This document shows positions 103-8,892 of a stretch of 10,752 nucleotides of DNA, piece by piece; position 1 is the stretch's first letter, and each line of letters opens with the position of its first letter. The position numbers were made by a program, and so were the translations under genes. The DNA comes from a virus. Taxonomy: Duplodnaviria; Heunggongvirae; Uroviricota; Caudoviricetes. The DNA lies in the IMG/VR virus record IMGVR_UViG_2695420889_000008. One strand, given 5' to 3'. Under the pieces are notes generated by a model. It was not told the DNA's origin. It saw nothing but the letters and a program-made list of their open reading frames with translations, and did no database searches.

Positions 103-125
103 AAAAAAACCCGCGCATCGGCGGG
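103..125 (-). terminator. Rho-independent terminator downstream of the Q-like gene (candidate tR'-like)
   Basis: On the minus strand: CCCGC-cgatgc-GCGGG hairpin (110-125) followed directly by T7 (plus-strand A-run 103-109). Lies ~110 nt past the stop of the last minus-strand gene. Confidence 0.6.
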
Positions 126-173
126 TTCTTAAATCTTATCAACGGTAGACATACAAAGCCCATCGTTGGGAAA

Positions 174-2825: not shown

Positions 2826-3215
2826 TCAGGCGGCTGCACCCGCCGGTTTCTCATACTTACTGATAGTGATCTCGACCTTCCCTTTCGGGATAACCGGTCC
2901 CCACTCCACCAGCATTCTTTTCACCTGGCTGTCGTCTTCCCACACACCCGCGTGGGTCAGGGCGTCAAACAGCGCCTTGTTATAGTTGTCCAGATCGCGG
3001 ATCCGGTTATCCGGAGGAAACAACACGATCTCCACTGAAGCAGGTGCCGACGTTGGTTTCGGCAGACGACGTAACTGCTCAACTATTGCTGCGCACGCCG
3101 CGCTCTGAAATTTTCGCCCCGCCTCGCTTATCAGGCTCTTACCAGCAAATGCCCCTTTGTTGGGGTGTCGCCAGTACGTGTTCACGCTGGGCGGGAAAGG
3201 CAGGATCAGCTTCAT
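2826..3215 (-). CDS. rusA: Holliday-junction resolvase RusA
   Basis: 129-aa ORF with RusA hallmarks: LPFPPSVNTYWRH and acidic catalytic cluster RIRDLDNYNKALFDALTHAGVWEDDSQV. ATGA overlap with the upstream gene. Confidence 0.85.
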   Translation of the reverse strand: MKLILPFPPSVNTYWRHPNKGAFAGKSLISEAGRKFQSAACAAIVEQLRRLPKPTSAPASVEIVLFPPDNRIRDLDNYNKALFDALTHAGVWEDDSQVKRMLVEWGPVIPKGKVEITISKYEKPAGAAA

Positions 3216-3538
3216 ACTTTCAGGCCTCTCTCATGTAACCAGTGAGTTGCACGCAGCCTTGCGTTTTCCTCACCGGCAAGCAGTGAGCGGATAATCCCGA
3301 CCGCCTCGCTGTCGTCGTCCTTCACCGCGGTATGAAGCGTGATCCCCCGGGCCACACCACGCTTTATCGTGATGACGCCTTTTTTCTCCAGTGCGCGAAG
3401 ATGCTCCACCGCTGCATTCACCGAACGGTATCCCAGCATGGTTGCCACCTCCTGATTGGTTGGCGGGAAGCCACGTTCTTTCTGATAAGAAATCAGCATA
3501 TCCAGCACCTGCTGCTGGCATTGAGTTAACGTCGTCAT
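3212..3538 (-). CDS. Orphan LexA-like N-terminal DNA-binding-domain protein (no S24 peptidase domain)
   Basis: 108-aa ORF. LTQCQQQVLDMLISYQKERGFPPTNQEVATMLGYRSVNAAVEHLRALEKKGVITIKRGVARGITL aligns by eye to the LexA winged-helix domain, including a near-identical recognition helix (SVNAAVEHLRAL vs LexA SPNAAEEHLKAL). No Ser/Lys peptidase domain. ATGA overlap with the Dam gene. Confidence 0.7.
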   Translation of the reverse strand: MTTLTQCQQQVLDMLISYQKERGFPPTNQEVATMLGYRSVNAAVEHLRALEKKGVITIKRGVARGITLHTAVKDDDSEAVGIIRSLLAGEENARLRATHWLHERGLKV

Positions 3539-4188: not shown

Positions 4189-4682
4189 TAAGCCCCCACG
4201 TAATTCCCTGACAGATACCACTCTTCACCCGATGCAGCGCGCTTGCTGCTTTTCCGTAAGCACCGCTCACGACGCGCCAGAAAATTGTTTCGTTCTGGCT
4301 GGGAGTGGCTTTCACGGAATGCCGCCATCCACACCGTTGCAGCACGACGGTATAAGCCCCTGGACTCCAGTTCTTCAGCCTGGCGGGTCAGGCACAAAAT
4401 CACCCGGGGGTCGTTAGTGCCGACATAGAAATTGCGCACAGGTCTGGTTTCACGAACTGGTTGCGGTTCCGATTCCTGCAAAACCTCAGTCTGGCGCGGG
4501 AAATGTCTGCGAGTATCCCCTTCACAACGGTGAGCCACACGCCCACTCTGACGTAACTTGCTTGCTGACTGCAGAACGCGCTGTCGTGAGTAACCTGCAA
4601 AAGCATCCGCAATGTCTCCGGAAGCACACCCCGGATGGGCTTCAATGAATTTCTGAACGTCATTTAACAGACTCATGATCAC
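4188..4682 (-). CDS. Hypothetical early protein with PerC-like C-terminal region
   Basis: 164-aa ORF; ATGA overlap with the O-like gene stop. Segment LESRGLYRRAATVWMAAF resembles the PerC-family core; recollection only. Confidence 0.5.
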   Translation of the reverse strand: MIMSLLNDVQKFIEAHPGCASGDIADAFAGYSRQRVLQSASKLRQSGRVAHRCEGDTRRHFPRQTEVLQESEPQPVRETRPVRNFYVGTNDPRVILCLTRQAEELESRGLYRRAATVWMAAFRESHSQPERNNFLARRERCLRKSSKRAASGEEWYLSGNYVGA

Positions 4683-5497: not shown

Positions 5498-5718
5498 GCT
5501 GCACCTCCGAGATGCTTCATGTTTTTTCCGGAGCGAAAGGCTATGAGCGGCATACTGACGCGGTAATTACGACCCAGCGGTTCACAAATCACCTTCTGAC
5601 ATTCACGGTCAACCAGGCTAACACGTAGAACATGCCCTGCAGGCGTGGTGTACCACTGACCCGGGCGAGGACAACGGAAAGTTTGATTGGTAAACCGTTT
5701 GAAAATATTTCGGATCAT
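5494..5718 (-). CDS. Hypothetical small protein (74 aa)
   Basis: ORF bracketed by ATGA overlaps on both sides (5715-5718 and 5494-5497), which argues for translation; no recognisable motif. Confidence 0.45.
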   Translation of the reverse strand: MIRNIFKRFTNQTFRCPRPGQWYTTPAGHVLRVSLVDRECQKVICEPLGRNYRVSMPLIAFRSGKNMKHLGGAA

Positions 5719-6866
5719 TTGCGCCCCCTTACCTCTGAAGAGTTCAGCGACGAATGAATAAGACGGGCAAGAAATGCCGCATCGTTAATTCGGTCATACA
5801 GACTTACAGCCAGCGGTGATTCAGCTTTTTCCAGCATGGGATAAAGCTGCTGCAACCAGACCTGATGAATTGATGAAATGTAGGAATAGAGAACGCTGGC
5901 GTTATGTGCAACGTCACTCGGTACAGCGAGCTTTGAAAGCTGTTTCTCCATCTGGTTAAAGGCATTGATGTATGCCTCTTTGAACTGGGCAGCACGTTTA
6001 CCCGTGAAACCCATAGCAAGAAACGCAAAGCCGTCGCGGGTTATTTGATAGCAAGGTAGTTTGCGGCCTGTGCAATCGGTGTAATCACTCACCGAAAAAT
6101 TGCGGGCAGTGAATGATGCGGAGCATTCAAGCGTGCGGATCTTTTTCAGAACATCGTCATGACGTTTGGAGAAGAAGTTGGCAACAGCCAGGGATGAAGT
6201 AACAGCCTGACCATCAACGATGGCAATTTCGGGTTGAGTGAGGGTTGGGATCGTAGCCATGATGGCAGCCTCTTTGGTGATTTTTAATAACTCACCACCA
6301 AGGCTTTCCACGACCTTATTGGTGGTGAGACGTACAGGGGTGGAAATACCGGTCACCAAAGAACCCGGCCCAACCGAAGTTGGCCCTGCACGCCCCACCA
6401 TAATTTGGGCGTAATGCTGCTCATGACACAAAAAAACCGCAAGAGCGCGGTTGTGCGCTTTGGTGAATTCCGGGTTTCCACGCCCGGCACCCGCTTTATA
6501 AGGTGCCTGAACAGTGTAACGTCCCGGAATGGCAGAATCAATGTGCTGGTGGTCCTTCACACTCAACAAAATCACGCCTGAATTTCCACAAAGGACTAAA
6601 GCACTCATGCGGGTAGTCTTTGCGAAGATAGATAACGCGCTGTGTTTCTGGCTCCCAACGAATAACATGGACATAAAGCCCTCTTCCGTCACGAAACCAG
6701 CGGTTAAGTTCCTGCACAACTCGCCCCCCACAGTCAGGTAAAGTTCTCTGTGGTTACTTACAGCCAGGTGATTTGGTAATCTGCATTCATGCCGTAACAA
6801 CAGGTGTTCAGCGACACTGACCACCAGCTGTTGCGACAAACGGTTATTTGCCGTTAAACTGTTCAT
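5715..6866 (-). CDS. Rha-family phage regulatory protein, C-terminal 181 aa, with ~200-aa in-frame N-terminal extension of unknown function
   Basis: Rha signature VTSSLAVANFFSKRHDDVLKKIRTL...ITRDGFAFLAMGFTGKRAAQFKEAYINAFNQME lies in the C-terminal half. The open frame runs 383 codons from an ATG (6864-6866) that overlaps the CII-like stop (ATGA). A second start at 6258-6260 has an AGAGG Shine-Dalgarno and would give a stand-alone Rha protein (5715-6260). Which start is used is unresolved. Confidence 0.55.
   Translation of the reverse strand: MNSLTANNRLSQQLVVSVAEHLLLRHECRLPNHLAVSNHRELYLTVGGELCRNLTAGFVTEEGFMSMLFVGSQKHSALSIFAKTTRMSALVLCGNSGVILLSVKDHQHIDSAIPGRYTVQAPYKAGAGRGNPEFTKAHNRALAVFLCHEQHYAQIMVGRAGPTSVGPGSLVTGISTPVRLTTNKVVESLGGELLKITKEAAIMATIPTLTQPEIAIVDGQAVTSSLAVANFFSKRHDDVLKKIRTLECSASFTARNFSVSDYTDCTGRKLPCYQITRDGFAFLAMGFTGKRAAQFKEAYINAFNQMEKQLSKLAVPSDVAHNASVLYSYISSIHQVWLQQLYPMLEKAESPLAVSLYDRINDAAFLARLIHSSLNSSEVRGRK
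6430..6452 (-). terminator. Intragenic terminator-like hairpin inside the N-terminal extension of the Rha ORF
   Basis: Minus strand: ACCGC-gctctt-GCGGT followed by T6-7. Short stem, so weak. Confidence 0.3.
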
Positions 6867-7426
6867 GCGTTAGTTTCTCCACAGACACAAAACGCCACGA
6901 CGCCCGGAGCTGCACACTCGCGGGCGTCACTCTTTTCTGGAGCGCAAAAGATTTTGTAGACCAGTGCTGCATGCTCCTGGAGCTTCGAAATTGACAGATA
7001 CAACTCATCATTAATTGCTGTCTGCTCGTGTGGCTCCACGACCCCATCTTCGATTGCCGAACGAATCTGCTTTGAGTAATTCCCGATCTGTTCGATGACT
7101 TCCAGCAGGCGCTGGTTTATATCGGCGTTCTCTACTTCCTCAATTTCAGGAAGCGATACGAACACCCCACCAGCAGACTGTGCGACAGCATCCGCAATGT
7201 AGTGAGTGCCAGCCGCGCGCTGTAAAACCATTGCCCATCCCAGCGGGAAAATCTGATCGCCATCGGCACGAAGGCGGTTAAATAATGCGTTCTCTGTTAC
7301 ATCCAGCCAGTCAGCTGCTTCAGCGTAACCACCCGGCAACGCTGCGATAGTTTTTCTGACAGCTTTCACGTACCACTCAGGCTGTTTTTCTACTTTCCAG
7401 TGATACTTACCCACGGTTAGCCTCAT
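6863..7426 (-). CDS. CII-like early regulatory protein (tentative)
   Basis: 187-aa ORF immediately downstream of the Cro-like gene, stop overlapping the next start. Family guess is from position and recollection only; weak Shine-Dalgarno. Confidence 0.4.
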   Translation of the reverse strand: MRLTVGKYHWKVEKQPEWYVKAVRKTIAALPGGYAEAADWLDVTENALFNRLRADGDQIFPLGWAMVLQRAAGTHYIADAVAQSAGGVFVSLPEIEEVENADINQRLLEVIEQIGNYSKQIRSAIEDGVVEPHEQTAINDELYLSISKLQEHAALVYKIFCAPEKSDARECAAPGVVAFCVCGETNA

Positions 7427-7748: not shown

Positions 7749-8423
7749 ATGAAAACAGTCCATGACATCCGGCGGTCTAACGCCAGAAAACTGAGAGATG
7801 GTGTTGGCGGGAATTCTTCCTTTGCCACCATGATTGATCGCGAGCCAACCCAGACCAGCAGGTTTATGGGAGATGGTGCTACTAAAAATATCGGTGACAG
7901 CATGGCACGGCACATCGAAAAATGTTTCGACCTGCCTGTCGGATGGCTTGATCAAGAACACCAGACCACGAACATCACAAAAAAACCTGATGTTTCAATC
8001 ACTAACAAACAAATAACGTTAGTCCCTGTCATATCATGGGTACAGGCCGGAGCATGGAAAGAAGTTGGCTATTCTGAGGTTGATTTGAGCACAGCAGAAA
8101 CTTATCCCTGCCCTGTACCCTGTGGCGAAATGACTTATATCTTGCGGGTGATTGGTGATTCAATGATTGATGAGTACCGCCCGGGAGACATGATTTTTGT
8201 TGATCCCGAAGTCCCTGCCTGCCACGGTGACGACGTTATTGCATTGATGCACGATACAGGCGAAACCACCTTCAAGCGATTGATAGAAGATGGAACACAG
8301 CGTTATCTCAAAGCATTAAACCCAAACTGGCCTGAGCCTTACATTAAGATTAACGGTAATTGCTCTATAATTGGTACAGTAATTTTCTCAGGAAAACCAA
8401 GAAGATACAAAATAAAGGCCTAA
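7749..8423 (+). CDS. CI/DicA-type prophage repressor with LexA-like S24 autopeptidase domain
   Basis: 224-aa ORF. C-terminal domain has the S24 motifs GDSM (catalytic Ser), GDMIFVD and TFKRL (catalytic Lys). N-terminal domain ends in the VGWLD motif typical of C2/CI-type DNA-binding domains. Confidence 0.85.
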   Translation: MKTVHDIRRSNARKLRDGVGGNSSFATMIDREPTQTSRFMGDGATKNIGDSMARHIEKCFDLPVGWLDQEHQTTNITKKPDVSITNKQITLVPVISWVQAGAWKEVGYSEVDLSTAETYPCPVPCGEMTYILRVIGDSMIDEYRPGDMIFVDPEVPACHGDDVIALMHDTGETTFKRLIEDGTQRYLKALNPNWPEPYIKINGNCSIIGTVIFSGKPRRYKIKA

Positions 8424-8434
8424 TCAATATTTAT

Positions 8435-8457
8435 AACCTGCTTCGGCAGGTTTTTTT
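8435..8457 (+). terminator. Rho-independent terminator after the repressor gene
   Basis: AACCTGC-ttcg-GCAGGTT hairpin followed by T7, 12 nt after the cI stop. Confidence 0.75.
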
Positions 8458-8461
8458 ATAC

Positions 8462-8494
8462 TTGACAATGTACCCACAAGATACATAATGTATC
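8462..8494 (+). promoter_or_regulatory. PL/PdicB-like repressor-controlled promoter with embedded operator
   Basis: -35 TTGACA (8462-8467), 16-bp spacer, -10 CATAAT (8484-8489). Operator-like TGTACC-cacaa-GATACA (8469-8485) fills the spacer; the 15-bp perfect palindrome GATACATAATGTATC (8480-8494) overlaps the -10. Confidence 0.6.
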
Positions 8495-8892
8495 TAAAAG
8501 AAACATGCCGCAGGCAAGATTAAACAAAATTTGGTTGTAACACGGCGTATGGCACATGCGTCGTTAGCGGTCTGGGGACGTTAAAGGGGACAATCCACTC
8601 CTTGCTCGGGCAAAAAAACCAGGTAGCCGGAATGTGCAAGTCAATGATGATGCTGATAAGACGCCTAACCAGCGCGGCGATCCGGTTTGACGCCTGGGAA
8701 GAGACCAGGGTGCAACGATGAGGGCATTTATGGAACCGCGACAAAGTGTGGTGCCGTAACTGGCTAAGTGCTCTCAGCGTTGTGGTAATCCGCGAAATGG
8801 CGCGGCGGTAAGTATGGCGGGGTTACTCTTTCCCCGTTGAGGACACCGGATTGTCAGGTTGACCATACGCCTGAGTGACAACCCCACCACAA

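What the first reader, a model, noticed from the sequence alone, without database searches (positions are those of the whole stretch)
5715..6866. Rha-family gene with a 200-codon in-frame upstream extension, internal ribosome-binding site and intragenic terminator-like hairpin
A complete Rha protein can start at 6260 with a good Shine-Dalgarno, yet the frame stays open for a further 202 codons to an ATG that overlaps the CII-like stop. A hairpin plus U-tract lies inside that extension at 6430-6452. This may be a two-domain protein, two isoforms from nested starts, or a fused or decayed gene with an attenuator controlling Rha.
Basis: seen in the sequence. Interest (0 to 1): 0.4.

Follow-up and report, generated by a model that had tools for sequence, protein, structure and literature searches.

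The report
RNA switch misread as protein extension
The 200-codon "extension" in front of this prophage Rha gene is not a protein domain but a known kind of small-RNA switch (an IsrK-like leader RNA plus a C4 antisense RNA) that most likely controls translation of a 181-residue antirepressor-type protein, and databases routinely annotate the whole stretch as one long protein.

Summary
On the minus strand, ORF 5715-6866 is open for 383 codons. ATG 6260 has a good Shine-Dalgarno sequence, and a hairpin plus U-run lies at 6428-6452.

The extension is not a protein domain. It holds four things:
- a 145-nt spacer;
- a DUF4222 gene in another frame (6538-6717);
- a C4 antisense RNA (6318-6405).

The C4 segments a' and b' are exactly complementary to a1/b1 inside IsrK and to a2/b2. 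Site b2 overlaps the Rha Shine-Dalgarno sequence. These sites change together in at least 15 specificity variants across about 41 loci.

Substitutions show a third-codon-position excess in ymfL, DUF4222 and Rha. The long frame across the extension shows none.

This is the P1 immI / Gifsy-1 isrK-anrP / P4 cI kind of switch, already reported in lambdoid prophages. Here the cargo is a Rha-family protein.

Pfam "Phage_ASH" appears to be a translation of this RNA.

One twist remains open. An AUG at 6401, homologous to the Gifsy-1 orf45 start, is in frame with Rha, and that frame carries about half as many stop codons as the other two frames across alleles. A 228-residue isoform is therefore possible.

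Known kind, new member. Interest is modest.

The parts
6863..7414 (-). ymfL, a CII-like (Pfam Phage_CP76) gene. Its stop overlaps the ATG of the long ORF as ATGA. Context only.
   Evidence: Pfam Phage_CP76 E=1.2e-14. RefSeq annotation of the identical E. coli E2865 locus. Third-codon-position excess 21/15/81.
6718..6862 (-). Spacer between ymfL and DUF4222. It forms the first 48 codons of the long ORF but shows no coding signature in that frame.
   Evidence: Variable sites by codon position are 8/12/3 in 38 relatives and 7/12/13 against ST64B, which also has a 6-nt deletion here. No family match.
6538..6717 (-). DUF4222 small gene (59 aa, GTG start), in a different frame from the long ORF. Its stop lies inside the -35 hexamer of the RNA promoter.
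   Evidence: Pfam DUF4222 E=9.5e-14. Annotated separately by PGAP in strains RM13752 and XB2. Variable sites 2/1/11 in its own frame and 1/11/2 in the long frame.
6513..6541 (-). Putative sigma-70 promoter of the RNA operon: TTGATT (6541-6536), 17 nt, TACACT (6518-6513); +1 at about 6506.
   Evidence: It matches 8 of 12 consensus positions and falls below the 9-of-12 threshold of the generic scan. It sits where the best promoter-like match lies in most of 41 loci (about two dozen; the -10 ends about 102-116 nt before C4), including the window. In Gifsy-1 this position holds the promoter-like element TTGACA/TATATT just upstream of isrK, where the paper places the isrK promoter. In P1 it coincides with the annotated P1c4/P51b. 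Conserved in ST64B. Function is inferred, not shown.
6430..6506 (-). IsrK-like leader/small RNA. It has a 5' hairpin, a second hairpin with a1 (GTGGAAA, 6481-6475) in its loop, single-stranded b1 (TCACCAAAG, 6466-6458), and an intrinsic terminator.
   Evidence: Rfam isrK 67.0 bits (gathering 50), E=6.2e-13, full length. Weak overlapping c4-a1b1 match of 22.6 bits. Site coordinates. IsrK lies upstream of C4 at gathering score in 15 of 18 other loci.
6428..6452 (-). Intrinsic terminator of IsrK: AACCGCG-CUCU-UGCGGUU followed by a U-run.
   Evidence: Terminator scan. Last helix of the Rfam isrK alignment. The homologous Gifsy-1 terminator is partly read through in experiments (PMC4825925).
6318..6405 (-). 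C4-type antisense RNA. It has a long closing stem and two hairpins. b' (CTTTGGTGA, 6361-6353) is the loop of hairpin 2, and a' (TTTCCAC, 6346-6340) is the single-stranded joint. By homology with P1 the mature RNA would be about 6399-6321.
   Evidence: Rfam C4 83.6 bits (gathering 45), E=9.8e-16. In a 33-sequence alignment, 26 pairs are predicted and 11 show compensatory double changes. P1 C4 boundaries from the GenBank annotation.
6399..6401 (-). Upstream AUG at the 5' edge of C4, in frame with Rha (47 codons upstream). It is homologous to the first AUG of Gifsy-1 orf45 and would start a possible 228-aa isoform.
   Evidence: Sequence. Gifsy-1 comparison and PMC4825925 Table 1. Frame statistics.
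6261..6317 (-). Target region of the mRNA leader: a2 (GTGGAAA, 6311-6305), GGTGGTGA (6299-6292), b2 (TCACCAAAGA, 6280-6271) overlapping the Shine-Dalgarno AAGAGG (6274-6269).
   Evidence: Exact complementarity to a' and b'. Cognate duplexes are -18.7 and -13.0 kcal/mol against -4.6 to -8.4 for non-cognate alleles. The same layout occurs in all of about 41 loci surveyed.
5715..6260 (-). Rha-family protein gene (181 aa). This is the regulated cargo and is presumed to be an antirepressor.
   Evidence: Pfam Phage_pRha E=4.8e-31. TIGR02681 E=1.9e-30. Third-position excess 39/28/94. The Shine-Dalgarno/ATG context GAGGCTGCCATCATGGCTAC is conserved in front of different cargo genes. Cargo at this position elsewhere is AntA, Bro-N, KilA-N, ORF6N or Rha.

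Best explanation
The 383-codon ORF merges non-coding DNA with a real gene. The real gene is the 181-residue Rha-family protein that starts at ATG 6260.

Upstream of it lies an RNA switch of the P1 immI / Gifsy-1 isrK / P4 cI kind, embedded in the early operon of a lambdoid prophage of E. coli.

Proposed mechanism:
1. A promoter at about 6541-6513 starts transcription at about 6506. This step is inferred.
2. Most transcripts stop at the intrinsic terminator (6452-6428). This gives a 77-nt IsrK-like RNA carrying the sites a1 and b1.
3. Transcripts that read through contain the C4 RNA (6405-6318). By homology with P1 and P4, it is cut out as a stable RNA of about 79 nt.
4. The C4 loop b' and joint a' pair with b2 and a2 in the leader of the same mRNA species. 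Site b2 covers the Rha Shine-Dalgarno sequence, so Rha is not translated.
5. IsrK carries the same target sequences and can compete for C4 or reopen the leader. This is how Rha synthesis is switched on in Gifsy-1.

Rha would then act as an antirepressor-type regulator of prophage induction.

What is shown here: the identity and coordinates of the RNAs, the complementarity and its co-variation, and the absence of coding constraint in the extension. What is inferred from homologous systems: the promoter, processing, termination efficiency, translational block, and the antirepressor role of Rha.
For: - RNA identity: Rfam C4 scores 83.6 bits and isrK 67.0 bits, both full length and above gathering score.
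- DUF4222: this gene sits in another frame inside the 'extension' and is annotated on its own in other strains.
- Complementarity: a'/b' match a1/b1 and a2/b2 exactly, and b2 abuts or overlaps the Shine-Dalgarno sequence. This holds in the window and in every one of about 41 modules from Enterobacterales, Vibrio and Pseudomonas, with at least 15 different a-sequences.
- Cassette swapping: strains with identical flanks carry swapped cassettes in which a1, b1, a', b', a2 and b2 change together. Examples are window against RM13752, ST64B and XB2.
- Specificity: cognate duplex energies are -13 to -22 kcal/mol, non-cognate -5 to -8.
- C4 structure: 11 of 26 pairs show compensatory changes. C4 lengths of 80-86 nt differ by amounts that are not multiples of three.
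- Codon-position test: the extension gives 20/36/11 against Rha 39/28/94 and ymfL 21/15/81. The same holds against ST64B.
- Frame conservation: the 'Ash' frame is interrupted before the cargo start in about half of the diverse loci, and the cargo start is out of frame with it in about a third (13 of 37 alleles).
- Cargo start: the same Shine-Dalgarno/ATG context precedes unrelated cargo genes.
- Literature: the P1 GenBank record annotates a1, b1, c4, a2, b2 and icd/ant in the same order. Gifsy-1 has the same layout, with experimental work in PMC4825925. IsrK-C4 systems in lambdoid Salmonella prophages were noted in PMC3632133.
Against: - The frame is open for 202 codons, P about 5e-5 by composition. 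It stays open in all close relatives and in ST64B at 82% identity. That retention is not significant on its own, P=0.10 by simulation.
- All top 120 database homologues are annotated as single proteins of 382-598 aa with Pfam Rha plus Ash.
- Pfam Phage_ASH matches residues 117-213 at E=3.5e-15.
- The promoter matches only 8 of 12 consensus positions, so the generic scan, which requires 9 of 12, does not list it.
- No expression data for this element were available.
- Across alleles the frame starting at AUG 6401 has about half as many stops as the other two frames. This suggests part of the leader may be translated.
Confidence: 0.85

Rival explanations
1. A nested-start variant that can coexist with the main explanation. 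Ribosomes also start at AUG 6401, at the 5' edge of C4. They read 47 codons through C4 and the a2/b2 leader, in frame, into Rha. This would give a 228-residue isoform, or would simply open the leader for starts at 6260. It corresponds to Gifsy-1 orf45, except that here the upstream ORF is fused to the cargo instead of ending at its start codon.
For: - The AUG and its frame are homologous to the first AUG of Gifsy-1 orf45. Mutating that AUG cuts IsrK-dependent anrP translation from 114-fold to 20-fold (PMC4825925 Table 1).
- In 37 specificity alleles from loci selected by DNA alone, this frame averages 0.97 stops between the two starts, against 1.95 and 2.0 in the other frames. Zero-stop alleles number 19, against 6 and 4.
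- The cargo ATG is in frame in 24 of 37 alleles (p=9e-5 against one third).
- About ten Rha-cargo alleles of the enterobacterial lambdoid group have a spacing of 138 or 141 nt and are open.
Against: - There is no Shine-Dalgarno sequence in front of AUG 6401.
- There is no third-position signature in these 47 codons: 5/1/2 and 3/6/2.
- In P1 the same frame stops after 14 codons, and in about half of loci it stops before the cargo.
- The alleles are not independent, so the p-values are optimistic.
- In the P1 annotation the mature C4 starts at the G of this AUG, so processed transcripts lose it.
Confidence: 0.35
2. The whole 383-codon ORF is translated, but only on transcripts coming from the early (PR-type) promoter. 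Translation would be coupled to ymfL through the ATGA overlap. Ribosomes would melt the terminator and C4 and run in frame into Rha. This would bypass the RNA switch during lytic growth and give a 383-residue fusion whose N-terminal sequence does not matter.
For: - ATGA overlap with ymfL, and a GGAG about 10 nt upstream.
- 202 open codons, with 13 and 9 stops in the other frames.
- The frame is kept open in 38 relatives and in ST64B, including an in-frame 6-nt deletion.
- Transcripts from the internal promoter would lack this start, so two modes are conceivable.
Against: - The long frame would run across the DUF4222 gene in another frame.
- Where the module sits behind other upstream DNA, this frame has 2-6 stops in the 75 codons before IsrK.
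- Retention in ST64B is expected by chance with P=0.10.
- There is no amino-acid constraint anywhere in the extension.
- Gifsy-1, N15 and the Vibrio loci have an in-frame TGA two codons upstream of the upstream AUG (TGA-ATT-ATG).
Confidence: 0.06
3. It is what the databases say: a genuine two-domain Ash-Rha protein of 383 residues.
For: Pfam Phage_ASH matches at E=3.5e-15 over the whole model. PGAP and many submitters annotate one protein. The frame is open.
Against: - The Ash model maps exactly onto IsrK plus C4 plus the a2/b2 leader, and would read through an intrinsic terminator.
- The same model matches the legacy 'cI gene product' ORF of P4 over the Rfam C4 match. From my own knowledge of the P4 literature, the P4 immunity factor is the CI RNA, not a protein.
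- The frame is broken, or out of register with the cargo, in many loci.
- The C4 alignment contains 1-nt and 2-nt indels.
- No coding signature.
- NCBIfam has no model for this part.
Confidence: 0.03
4. Same parts, different main mode of action. C4 would work chiefly as a termination factor, in the P4 and N15 manner. It would pair with a1/b1 in the nascent leader and enforce termination at 6452-6428, rather than blocking the Rha ribosome-binding site.
For: a1/b1 lie just upstream of the terminator, as seqA does in P4. The Rfam isrK model also matches P4 and N15. The Gifsy-1 authors raise this possibility for STnc1160. P4 and N15 control by termination is from my own knowledge of that literature (Sabbattini 1995 and Ravin 1999, cited in PMC3632133).
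Against: b2 overlaps the Shine-Dalgarno sequence in every locus surveyed. That is unexplained if only termination matters. In Gifsy-1, transcription of anrP proceeds while translation is blocked: 280 against 4 Miller units. The two modes may coexist.
Confidence: 0.3

Closest known systems
Phage P1/P7 immI operon (c4 antisense RNA - icd - ant1/ant2)
   Same: The order is the same: promoter, a1, b1, C4, a2, b2, first cistron (P1 GenBank features). The C4 fold is the same (Rfam). b2 overlaps the Shine-Dalgarno sequence of the first cistron. Specificity resides in a'/b' and varies between heteroimmune relatives. The cargo is an antirepressor function.
   Different: There is no separate icd gene. 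The Rha gene follows directly and keeps only an Icd-like N-terminus, MATIPT. The cargo is Rha-family, not Ant. In the window, the IsrK model matches at gathering score, including its terminator helix, between b1 and C4; in P1 the same model reaches only 35 bits. The host element is a lambdoid prophage. In P1 the frame from the upstream AUG stops after 14 codons, whereas here it runs into the cargo.
Salmonella Gifsy-1 isrK-orf45-anrP locus (Hershko-Shalev et al. 2016, PMC4825925)
   Same: Both have an IsrK sRNA with a partly read-through terminator, a C4-like RNA (STnc1160) downstream, a2/b2-like sites at the cargo Shine-Dalgarno sequence, an antirepressor-type cargo, and a lambdoid prophage host. 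The upstream AUG at the C4 5' edge is homologous.
   Different: The Gifsy-1 cargo is an ORF6N protein and here it is Rha. Gifsy-1 orf45 ends with a TGA overlapping the anrP ATG, so the two are in different frames; here the equivalent frame is fused to the cargo. The Gifsy-1 locus lies next to the Q antiterminator gene, whereas this one lies between the cII-like gene and the replication genes. The specificity sequences differ.
Satellite phage P4 immunity (seqA - cI RNA - seqC)
   Same: Rfam isrK and C4 both match P4, at 8615-8692 and 8420-8507. PMC3632133 equates IsrK with seqA and C4 with the CI RNA. A legacy protein annotation overlies the RNA in both cases.
   Different: P4 CI acts by premature transcription termination of the replication operon (my knowledge of the literature), not on an antirepressor ribosome-binding site. 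The spacing between IsrK and C4 is larger in P4.
Phage-plasmid N15 anti-immunity locus (CA RNA, icd, antA/antB)
   Same: An IsrK-like leader with an annotated terminator, a C4-type RNA, and then the cargo including a Bro-N antirepressor. The annotated first CDS (gp32) starts inside C4 in the same frame as here.
   Different: N15 has a three-gene cargo. Control is reported to work by termination (Ravin 1999, cited; my recollection of its content).

Membership tests
Rfam C4 antisense RNA (RF01695) | Covariance-model score at or above the gathering score, over the full model | tested here: met
   83.6 bits against 45, model positions 1-87 of 87, E=9.8e-16.
Rfam C4 antisense RNA (RF01695) | Closing stem plus two hairpins, supported by compensatory changes | tested here: met
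   RNAalifold on 33 sequences including the window predicts 26 pairs, 11 of them with double compensatory changes.
Rfam C4 antisense RNA (RF01695) | Loop b' and joint a' complementary to target sites flanking the gene on the same strand | tested here: met
   Exact matches of 7 and 9-10 nt to a1/b1 and a2/b2. They co-vary across at least 15 specificities.
Rfam C4 antisense RNA (RF01695) | Processed from a longer transcript (RNase P) into a stable RNA of about 77 nt that acts in trans | not testable with these tools
   Only the P1 annotation of the mature ends is available. No RNA data exist for this element.
Rfam IsrK (RF01394) / P4 seqA-type leader | Covariance-model score at or above gathering, with three hairpins of which the last is an intrinsic terminator | tested here: met
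   67.0 bits against 50, full length. The terminator is also found independently.
Rfam IsrK (RF01394) / P4 seqA-type leader | Its own promoter directly upstream | tested here: inconclusive
   TTGATT-17-TACACT matches only 8 of 12 consensus positions. It lies at the position shared with the annotated P1 P51b and with the promoter-like element upstream of Gifsy-1 isrK, and with about two dozen of the 41 loci. No transcription start data.
Rfam IsrK (RF01394) / P4 seqA-type leader | Hfq binding and trans-activation of cargo translation | not testable with these tools
   Shown only for Gifsy-1 (PMC4825925).
P1 immI-type operon | b2 target overlaps the ribosome-binding site of the first cistron after C4 | tested here: met
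   b2 at 6280-6271 overlaps AAGAGG at 6274-6269, 8 nt before ATG 6260.
P1 immI-type operon | An icd gene between C4 and the antirepressor, translationally coupled to it | tested here: not met
   Rha starts at the position where icd starts in P1 and in many other loci. Only the first residues resemble Icd-like proteins.
P1 immI-type operon | The cargo antagonises the prophage repressor | not testable with these tools
   Inferred from position and from the cargo families found elsewhere: AntA, Bro-N, KilA-N, ORF6N.
Rha family (Pfam PF09669 / TIGR02681) | Domain match above the curated cut-off | tested here: met
   106-108 bits against 29.9. TIGR02681 scores 105 bits against 45.95. The domain lies wholly within the 181-residue product.
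Pfam Phage_ASH (PF10554) as a protein domain | HMM match above the cut-off | tested here: met
   56.8 bits against 26, model positions 1-106 of 107, residues 117-213.
Pfam Phage_ASH (PF10554) as a protein domain | The matched region evolves as coding sequence: conserved frame, third-position excess, indels in threes | tested here: not met
   Variable sites 11/13/6 over 6540-6261. Stops in this frame in about half of loci, and the cargo out of frame in about a third. 1-nt and 2-nt length differences in C4. The model spans an intrinsic terminator and two Rfam RNAs, and it also matches the legacy P4 'cI' ORF over the C4/CI RNA.
DUF4222 (PF13973) | Domain match above the cut-off and a coding signature in its own frame | tested here: met
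   51.1 bits against 27. Variable sites 2/1/11 and 3/3/14 against ST64B.

The most novel reading that the evidence does not exclude
The switch may be a choice, made on each transcript, at a single AUG. In P1 the annotated mature C4 begins at the G of the conserved AUUAUGG, so processing cuts through the start codon. In this lambdoid group the same AUG (6401) opens a frame that is kept free of stops and in register with the cargo gene across many otherwise reshuffled specificity cassettes. A read-through transcript would therefore take one of two fates. It is processed into the C4 repressor and loses the AUG. Or it is captured by a ribosome at that AUG, which unfolds C4 and the a2/b2 hairpin and translates straight into Rha as a 228-residue isoform. 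IsrK would tip the balance, as it does for 30S binding at orf45 in Gifsy-1.
Probability: 0.2. Interest if true: 0.6.

Novelty: new member of a known kind. Interest (0 to 1): 0.3.

Why it matters
- For this window, it replaces a puzzling 383-residue 'two-domain' protein with a concrete and testable layout: promoter, decoy/leader RNA with terminator, antisense RNA, target at the ribosome-binding site, and a 181-residue Rha cargo.

- More broadly, thousands of database entries are probably translations of a regulatory RNA joined to the real gene. They carry names such as 'Rha family phage regulatory protein' of 382-598 aa, 'peptidase' and 'ash family protein', with Pfam Rha+Ash architectures that are discussed as protein domains in Stx-phage work (PMC8951638). 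One satellite survey used PF10554 as its profile for P4 epsilon (PMC8628076). In my scan that model matches the P4 cI-RNA region, not epsilon.

- The locus is a second immunity determinant with many interchangeable specificities in E. coli, Shigella and Salmonella prophages, including Stx phages. It therefore bears on which prophages can induce one another.

- None of this is new in kind.

Tried and rejected
- Structure prediction. AlphaFold2 on the full 383 residues with a 26-sequence alignment gave mean pLDDT 33. Even the Rha domain was below 50, because the available homologues are 83-96% identical. The result is uninformative, and no fold search was run.

- RNA cofolding. RNAcofold and duplexfold of whole C4 against its targets gave no gain, or meaningless full unfolding, because loop-loop contacts are pseudoknot-like. 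I used local duplex energies of the a and b segments instead.

- IMG/VR search. The search for related loci with the translated Ash region returned 80 near-identical loci. They served the codon-position test but not a diversity survey, and the sample is biased towards open frames. I therefore used a DNA-pattern scan of genome contigs and blastn hits for the frame statistics.

- Selection for an open long frame. After 80 random substitutions, as between the window and ST64B, the frame stays open in 10% of simulations. That is not significant.

- DUF4222 start. I considered whether DUF4222 extends upstream into the spacer. A stop at 6756 in its frame bounds it, and GTG 6717 is the first start after that stop.

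- NCBIfam has no model for the extension.

- Literature searches for anyone flagging PF10554 as an RNA translation found none among the 10 papers in the searchable library that mention it. This is not proof that nobody has said so.
Full report
**What is in the sequence**

All the features lie on the minus strand.
- ORF 5715..6866 is open for 383 codons. Its ATG overlaps the stop of the upstream CII-like gene ymfL as ATGA.
- An in-frame ATG at 6260 is preceded by AAGAGG with an 8-nt spacer. The 181-residue product from that start holds the whole Rha domain.
- A 7-bp hairpin with a U-run lies at 6452-6428.
- On composition alone, 202 open codons have P of about 5e-5. The other two frames carry 13 and 9 stops.

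**Where the window comes from**

The window is identical to the chromosome of E. coli strain E2865, inside a lambdoid prophage of the e14/SfV/mEp460 type. PGAP annotates the whole ORF there as 'Rha family phage regulatory protein'.

**What the extension contains**

A scan against Rfam finds two full-length RNA genes inside it, on the same strand:
- C4 antisense RNA at 6405-6318 (83.6 bits, gathering score 45);
- IsrK at 6506-6430 (67 bits, gathering score 50).

Further upstream, 6717-6538 encodes a 59-residue DUF4222 protein in a different frame. PGAP annotates that gene separately in strains RM13752 and XB2.

The Pfam 'Phage_ASH' match to residues 117-213 of the long ORF covers exactly IsrK, C4 and the short leader before ATG 6260.

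**Test 1: complementarity and its co-variation**

- C4 loop b' (CTTTGGTGA, 6361-6353) is the exact complement of b1 (6466-6458, in IsrK) and of b2 (6280-6271). Site b2 overlaps the Shine-Dalgarno sequence of Rha.
- C4 joint a' (TTTCCAC, 6346-6340) is the complement of a1 (6481-6475) and a2 (6311-6305).
- Strain RM13752 has identical DNA up to a1. After that, all six elements change together: a becomes TTGGCGT and b becomes GCATACGG. The Shine-Dalgarno/ATG context stays the same, and the gene that follows is a different one.
- ST64B and strain XB2 provide a third and a fourth cassette.
- Cognate duplexes are -13 to -22 kcal/mol, and non-cognate ones -5 to -8.
- A DNA-pattern scan of one genome per species gave 38 further loci from Enterobacterales, Vibrio and Pseudomonas. 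With P1, N15 and Gifsy-1 this makes about 41 modules. Every one has a'/b' complementary to a1/b1 upstream and a2/b2 downstream. Site b2 lies 32-42 nt after C4, and the cargo ATG 50-60 nt after it. At least 15 different a-sequences occur.
- In a 33-sequence alignment of C4, 11 of 26 pairs show compensatory double changes. Lengths range from 80 to 86 nt.

**Test 2: is the extension coding?**

In 38 distinct relatives of 91-98% identity, the variable sites by codon position are as follows:

| Region | Position 1 / 2 / 3 |
|---|---|
| ymfL | 21 / 15 / 81 |
| Rha (from 6260) | 39 / 28 / 94 |
| DUF4222, own frame | 2 / 1 / 11 |
| Extension, long frame | 20 / 36 / 11 |

The third position is the least variable in the extension. 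Against ST64B the same contrast holds: 19/37/24 for the extension and 31/20/69 for Rha.

In the diverse loci, the frame corresponding to 'Ash' is interrupted before the cargo start in about half. The cargo start is out of register with it in about a third (13 of 37 alleles).

The extension is therefore not a protein domain. The uniform ~383-residue annotation of the top 120 database homologues reflects longest-ORF gene calling on close relatives.

**The Pfam Ash family**

The Ash model also matches the legacy 'cI gene product' ORF of phage P4 at residues 22-85. That ORF overlies the Rfam C4 match, which is the P4 CI RNA. P4 epsilon belongs to another family, PF25738.

From my own knowledge of the P4 literature, the immunity factor is the CI RNA, not a protein. 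PMC3632133 equates IsrK with seqA and C4 with CI.

I conclude that PF10554 is most likely a translation of this conserved RNA module. I found no paper in the searchable library saying so. Two papers treat it as a protein domain or as epsilon.

**How it most likely works**

The layout equals that of P1 immI as annotated in GenBank: promoter P51b, a1, b1, c4, a2, b2, first cistron. It also equals the Gifsy-1 isrK-orf45-anrP locus.

In Gifsy-1 (PMC4825925):
- the isrK promoter drives a short IsrK and a read-through transcript;
- the long transcript is transcribed but not translated (280 against 4 units);
- IsrK supplied in trans raises anrP translation more than 100-fold;
- a stable processed RNA, STnc1160, lies where C4 is.

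In P1, the c4 RNA represses synthesis of the Ant antirepressor (PMC8546580).

By homology I propose the following for the window:
1. A promoter (TTGATT-17-TACACT, 6541-6513) lies at the position shared with the annotated P1 P51b and with the promoter-like element upstream of Gifsy-1 isrK, where the paper places the isrK promoter. About two dozen of the 41 loci have their best promoter-like match at that position.
2. Most transcripts terminate at 6452-6428, giving IsrK.
3. C4 is processed out of read-through transcripts.
4. C4 pairs with a2/b2 and occludes the Rha ribosome-binding site.
5. IsrK, which carries a1/b1, competes for C4 or reopens the leader.

The identity and arrangement of the parts are shown here. 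Transcription starts, processing, termination efficiency and repression are all inferred.

Rha as an antirepressor is also an inference. It rests on position and on the cargo families found at the same place elsewhere:
- AntA, Bro-N, KilA-N, ORF6N and Rha;
- Icd-like small proteins;
- one SymE toxin.

**An open point: the upstream AUG**

The conserved AUUAUGG at the 5' edge of C4 contains an AUG (6401-6399). It is homologous to the first AUG of Gifsy-1 orf45, and mutating that AUG reduces IsrK-dependent anrP translation.

In Gifsy-1 that ORF ends with a TGA overlapping the anrP ATG. In the window it runs in frame into Rha, 47 codons downstream.

Among 37 specificity alleles from loci chosen by DNA alone:
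- this frame averages 0.97 stops between the two starts, against 1.95 and 2.0 in the other frames;
- zero-stop alleles number 19, against 6 and 4;
- the cargo ATG is in frame in 24 of 37.

About ten Rha-cargo alleles of the enterobacterial lambdoid group are in frame and open, although their spacers differ in sequence.

The alleles are not independent. P1 itself has an early stop, and these codons show no third-position signature. I therefore rate a 228-residue isoform, or a coupling role for this upstream ORF, as possible (about one in three) but not shown.

In the P1 annotation the mature C4 starts at the G of this AUG. Processing and initiation there would then exclude each other. This is my inference.

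**The 6866 start**

By contrast, the 6866 start has little support:
- where the module follows other upstream DNA, that frame is closed just before IsrK;
- retention of the open frame in ST64B is compatible with chance, P=0.10;
- the frame would have to run across DUF4222.

**Comparison with known systems, and novelty**

This element belongs to the IsrK/C4 (P1 immI, P4 cI, N15 CA, Gifsy-1 isrK) kind of antisense-RNA immunity switch. The presence of such switches in lambdoid Salmonella prophages was noted in 2013 (PMC3632133).

It differs from P1 in three ways. It has no icd gene, its cargo is Rha, and its leader matches the full IsrK model, terminator included, at gathering score, which P1's does not.

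It differs from Gifsy-1 in three ways. These are its cargo family, its position between the cII-like and replication genes, and an orf45-equivalent that is fused to the cargo.

It is a new member of a known kind. The practical value lies in correcting a widespread annotation artefact and in the catalogue of interchangeable specificity cassettes.

**Verdict**

Interest is 0.3.

Noticed in passing
window 6228-6518 (-); L125 (phage P4) 8330-8521 (-): Pfam PF10554 'Phage_ASH' looks like a translation of the IsrK + C4 RNA module. It matches the window ORF over exactly those RNAs, and it matches the legacy P4 'cI gene product' ORF over the Rfam C4/CI RNA. P4 epsilon is PF25738 instead. Published work has used PF10554 as an 'Ash domain' or as the epsilon marker (PMC8951638, PMC8628076).
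   Followed up: partly
window 6480-6262 (-) against L002 (RM13752) 3020-3240, L127 (XB2) and L126 (ST64B): Strains with identical flanking DNA carry different specificity cassettes, with a1/b1, a'/b' and a2/b2 swapped as a unit. XB2 even has the same Rha gene downstream. The switch points lie in the second IsrK hairpin and at the Shine-Dalgarno/ATG of the cargo. This suggests modular recombination and heteroimmunity-like diversification.
   Followed up: partly
window 6299-6292 (-) and the same position in all surveyed loci: A conserved GGTGGTGA between a2 and b2 is the reverse complement of the C4 3' strand TCACCACC, and it co-varies with it (for example CCGCCACC/GTGGCGG in L089 and CCTGCCACC/GGTAGCAGG in P1). 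It could form an alternative hairpin that presents a2 in its loop. In the window it can also pair with b2, so that the leader alone folds over the Shine-Dalgarno sequence and the ATG (-27.4 kcal/mol).
   Followed up: no
P0001, P0056 (Salmonella, 592-593 aa), P0079 (478 aa); L112 2792-3880; L092 4203-4624: Tandem modules exist. Some Salmonella ORFs read through two successive RNA-module + Rha units. Mixta (L112) has two complete modules about 1 kb apart with different a-specificities. Buttiauxella (L092) has three C4 copies in a row.
   Followed up: no
L089 (Yokenella regensburgei) about 4240-4540 (+): In one locus the cargo directly behind C4/a2/b2 is a SymE-family toxin (Pfam E=2.5e-17) instead of an antirepressor. 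The same RNA switch therefore appears to be used like a type I toxin-antitoxin control.
   Followed up: no
L090, L096/L103/L105, L104/L107: Where an Icd-like gene follows C4 in another frame, the frame opened by the C4-edge AUG stays open through the whole icd-like gene (65-81 codons) and joins the next gene in frame. The resulting ORFs are 163-416 codons long. I have no explanation for this.
   Followed up: partly
L090 about 4225-4286 and L118 about 2533-2594: These loci have a longer gap between IsrK and C4, containing a consensus TATAAT about 15 nt before C4. C4 may have a promoter of its own there.
   Followed up: no
window 6589-6583 (-): A third copy of the a-site heptamer GTGGAAA lies inside the DUF4222 coding sequence. 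No b-like partner is nearby, so it is probably chance.
   Followed up: no
L077 (IMG/VR contig 2534681675_000016): One relative has a 1-nt deletion between the C4-edge AUG and the Rha start, which puts Rha out of frame with the upstream ORF. It is either a sequencing error or a natural test case for whether the in-frame arrangement matters.
   Followed up: no
window 103-171 (-): A sub-threshold Rfam Leu_leader match (23 bits). It is only a strong intrinsic-terminator hairpin (CCCGC...GCGGG followed by a U-run).
   Followed up: no
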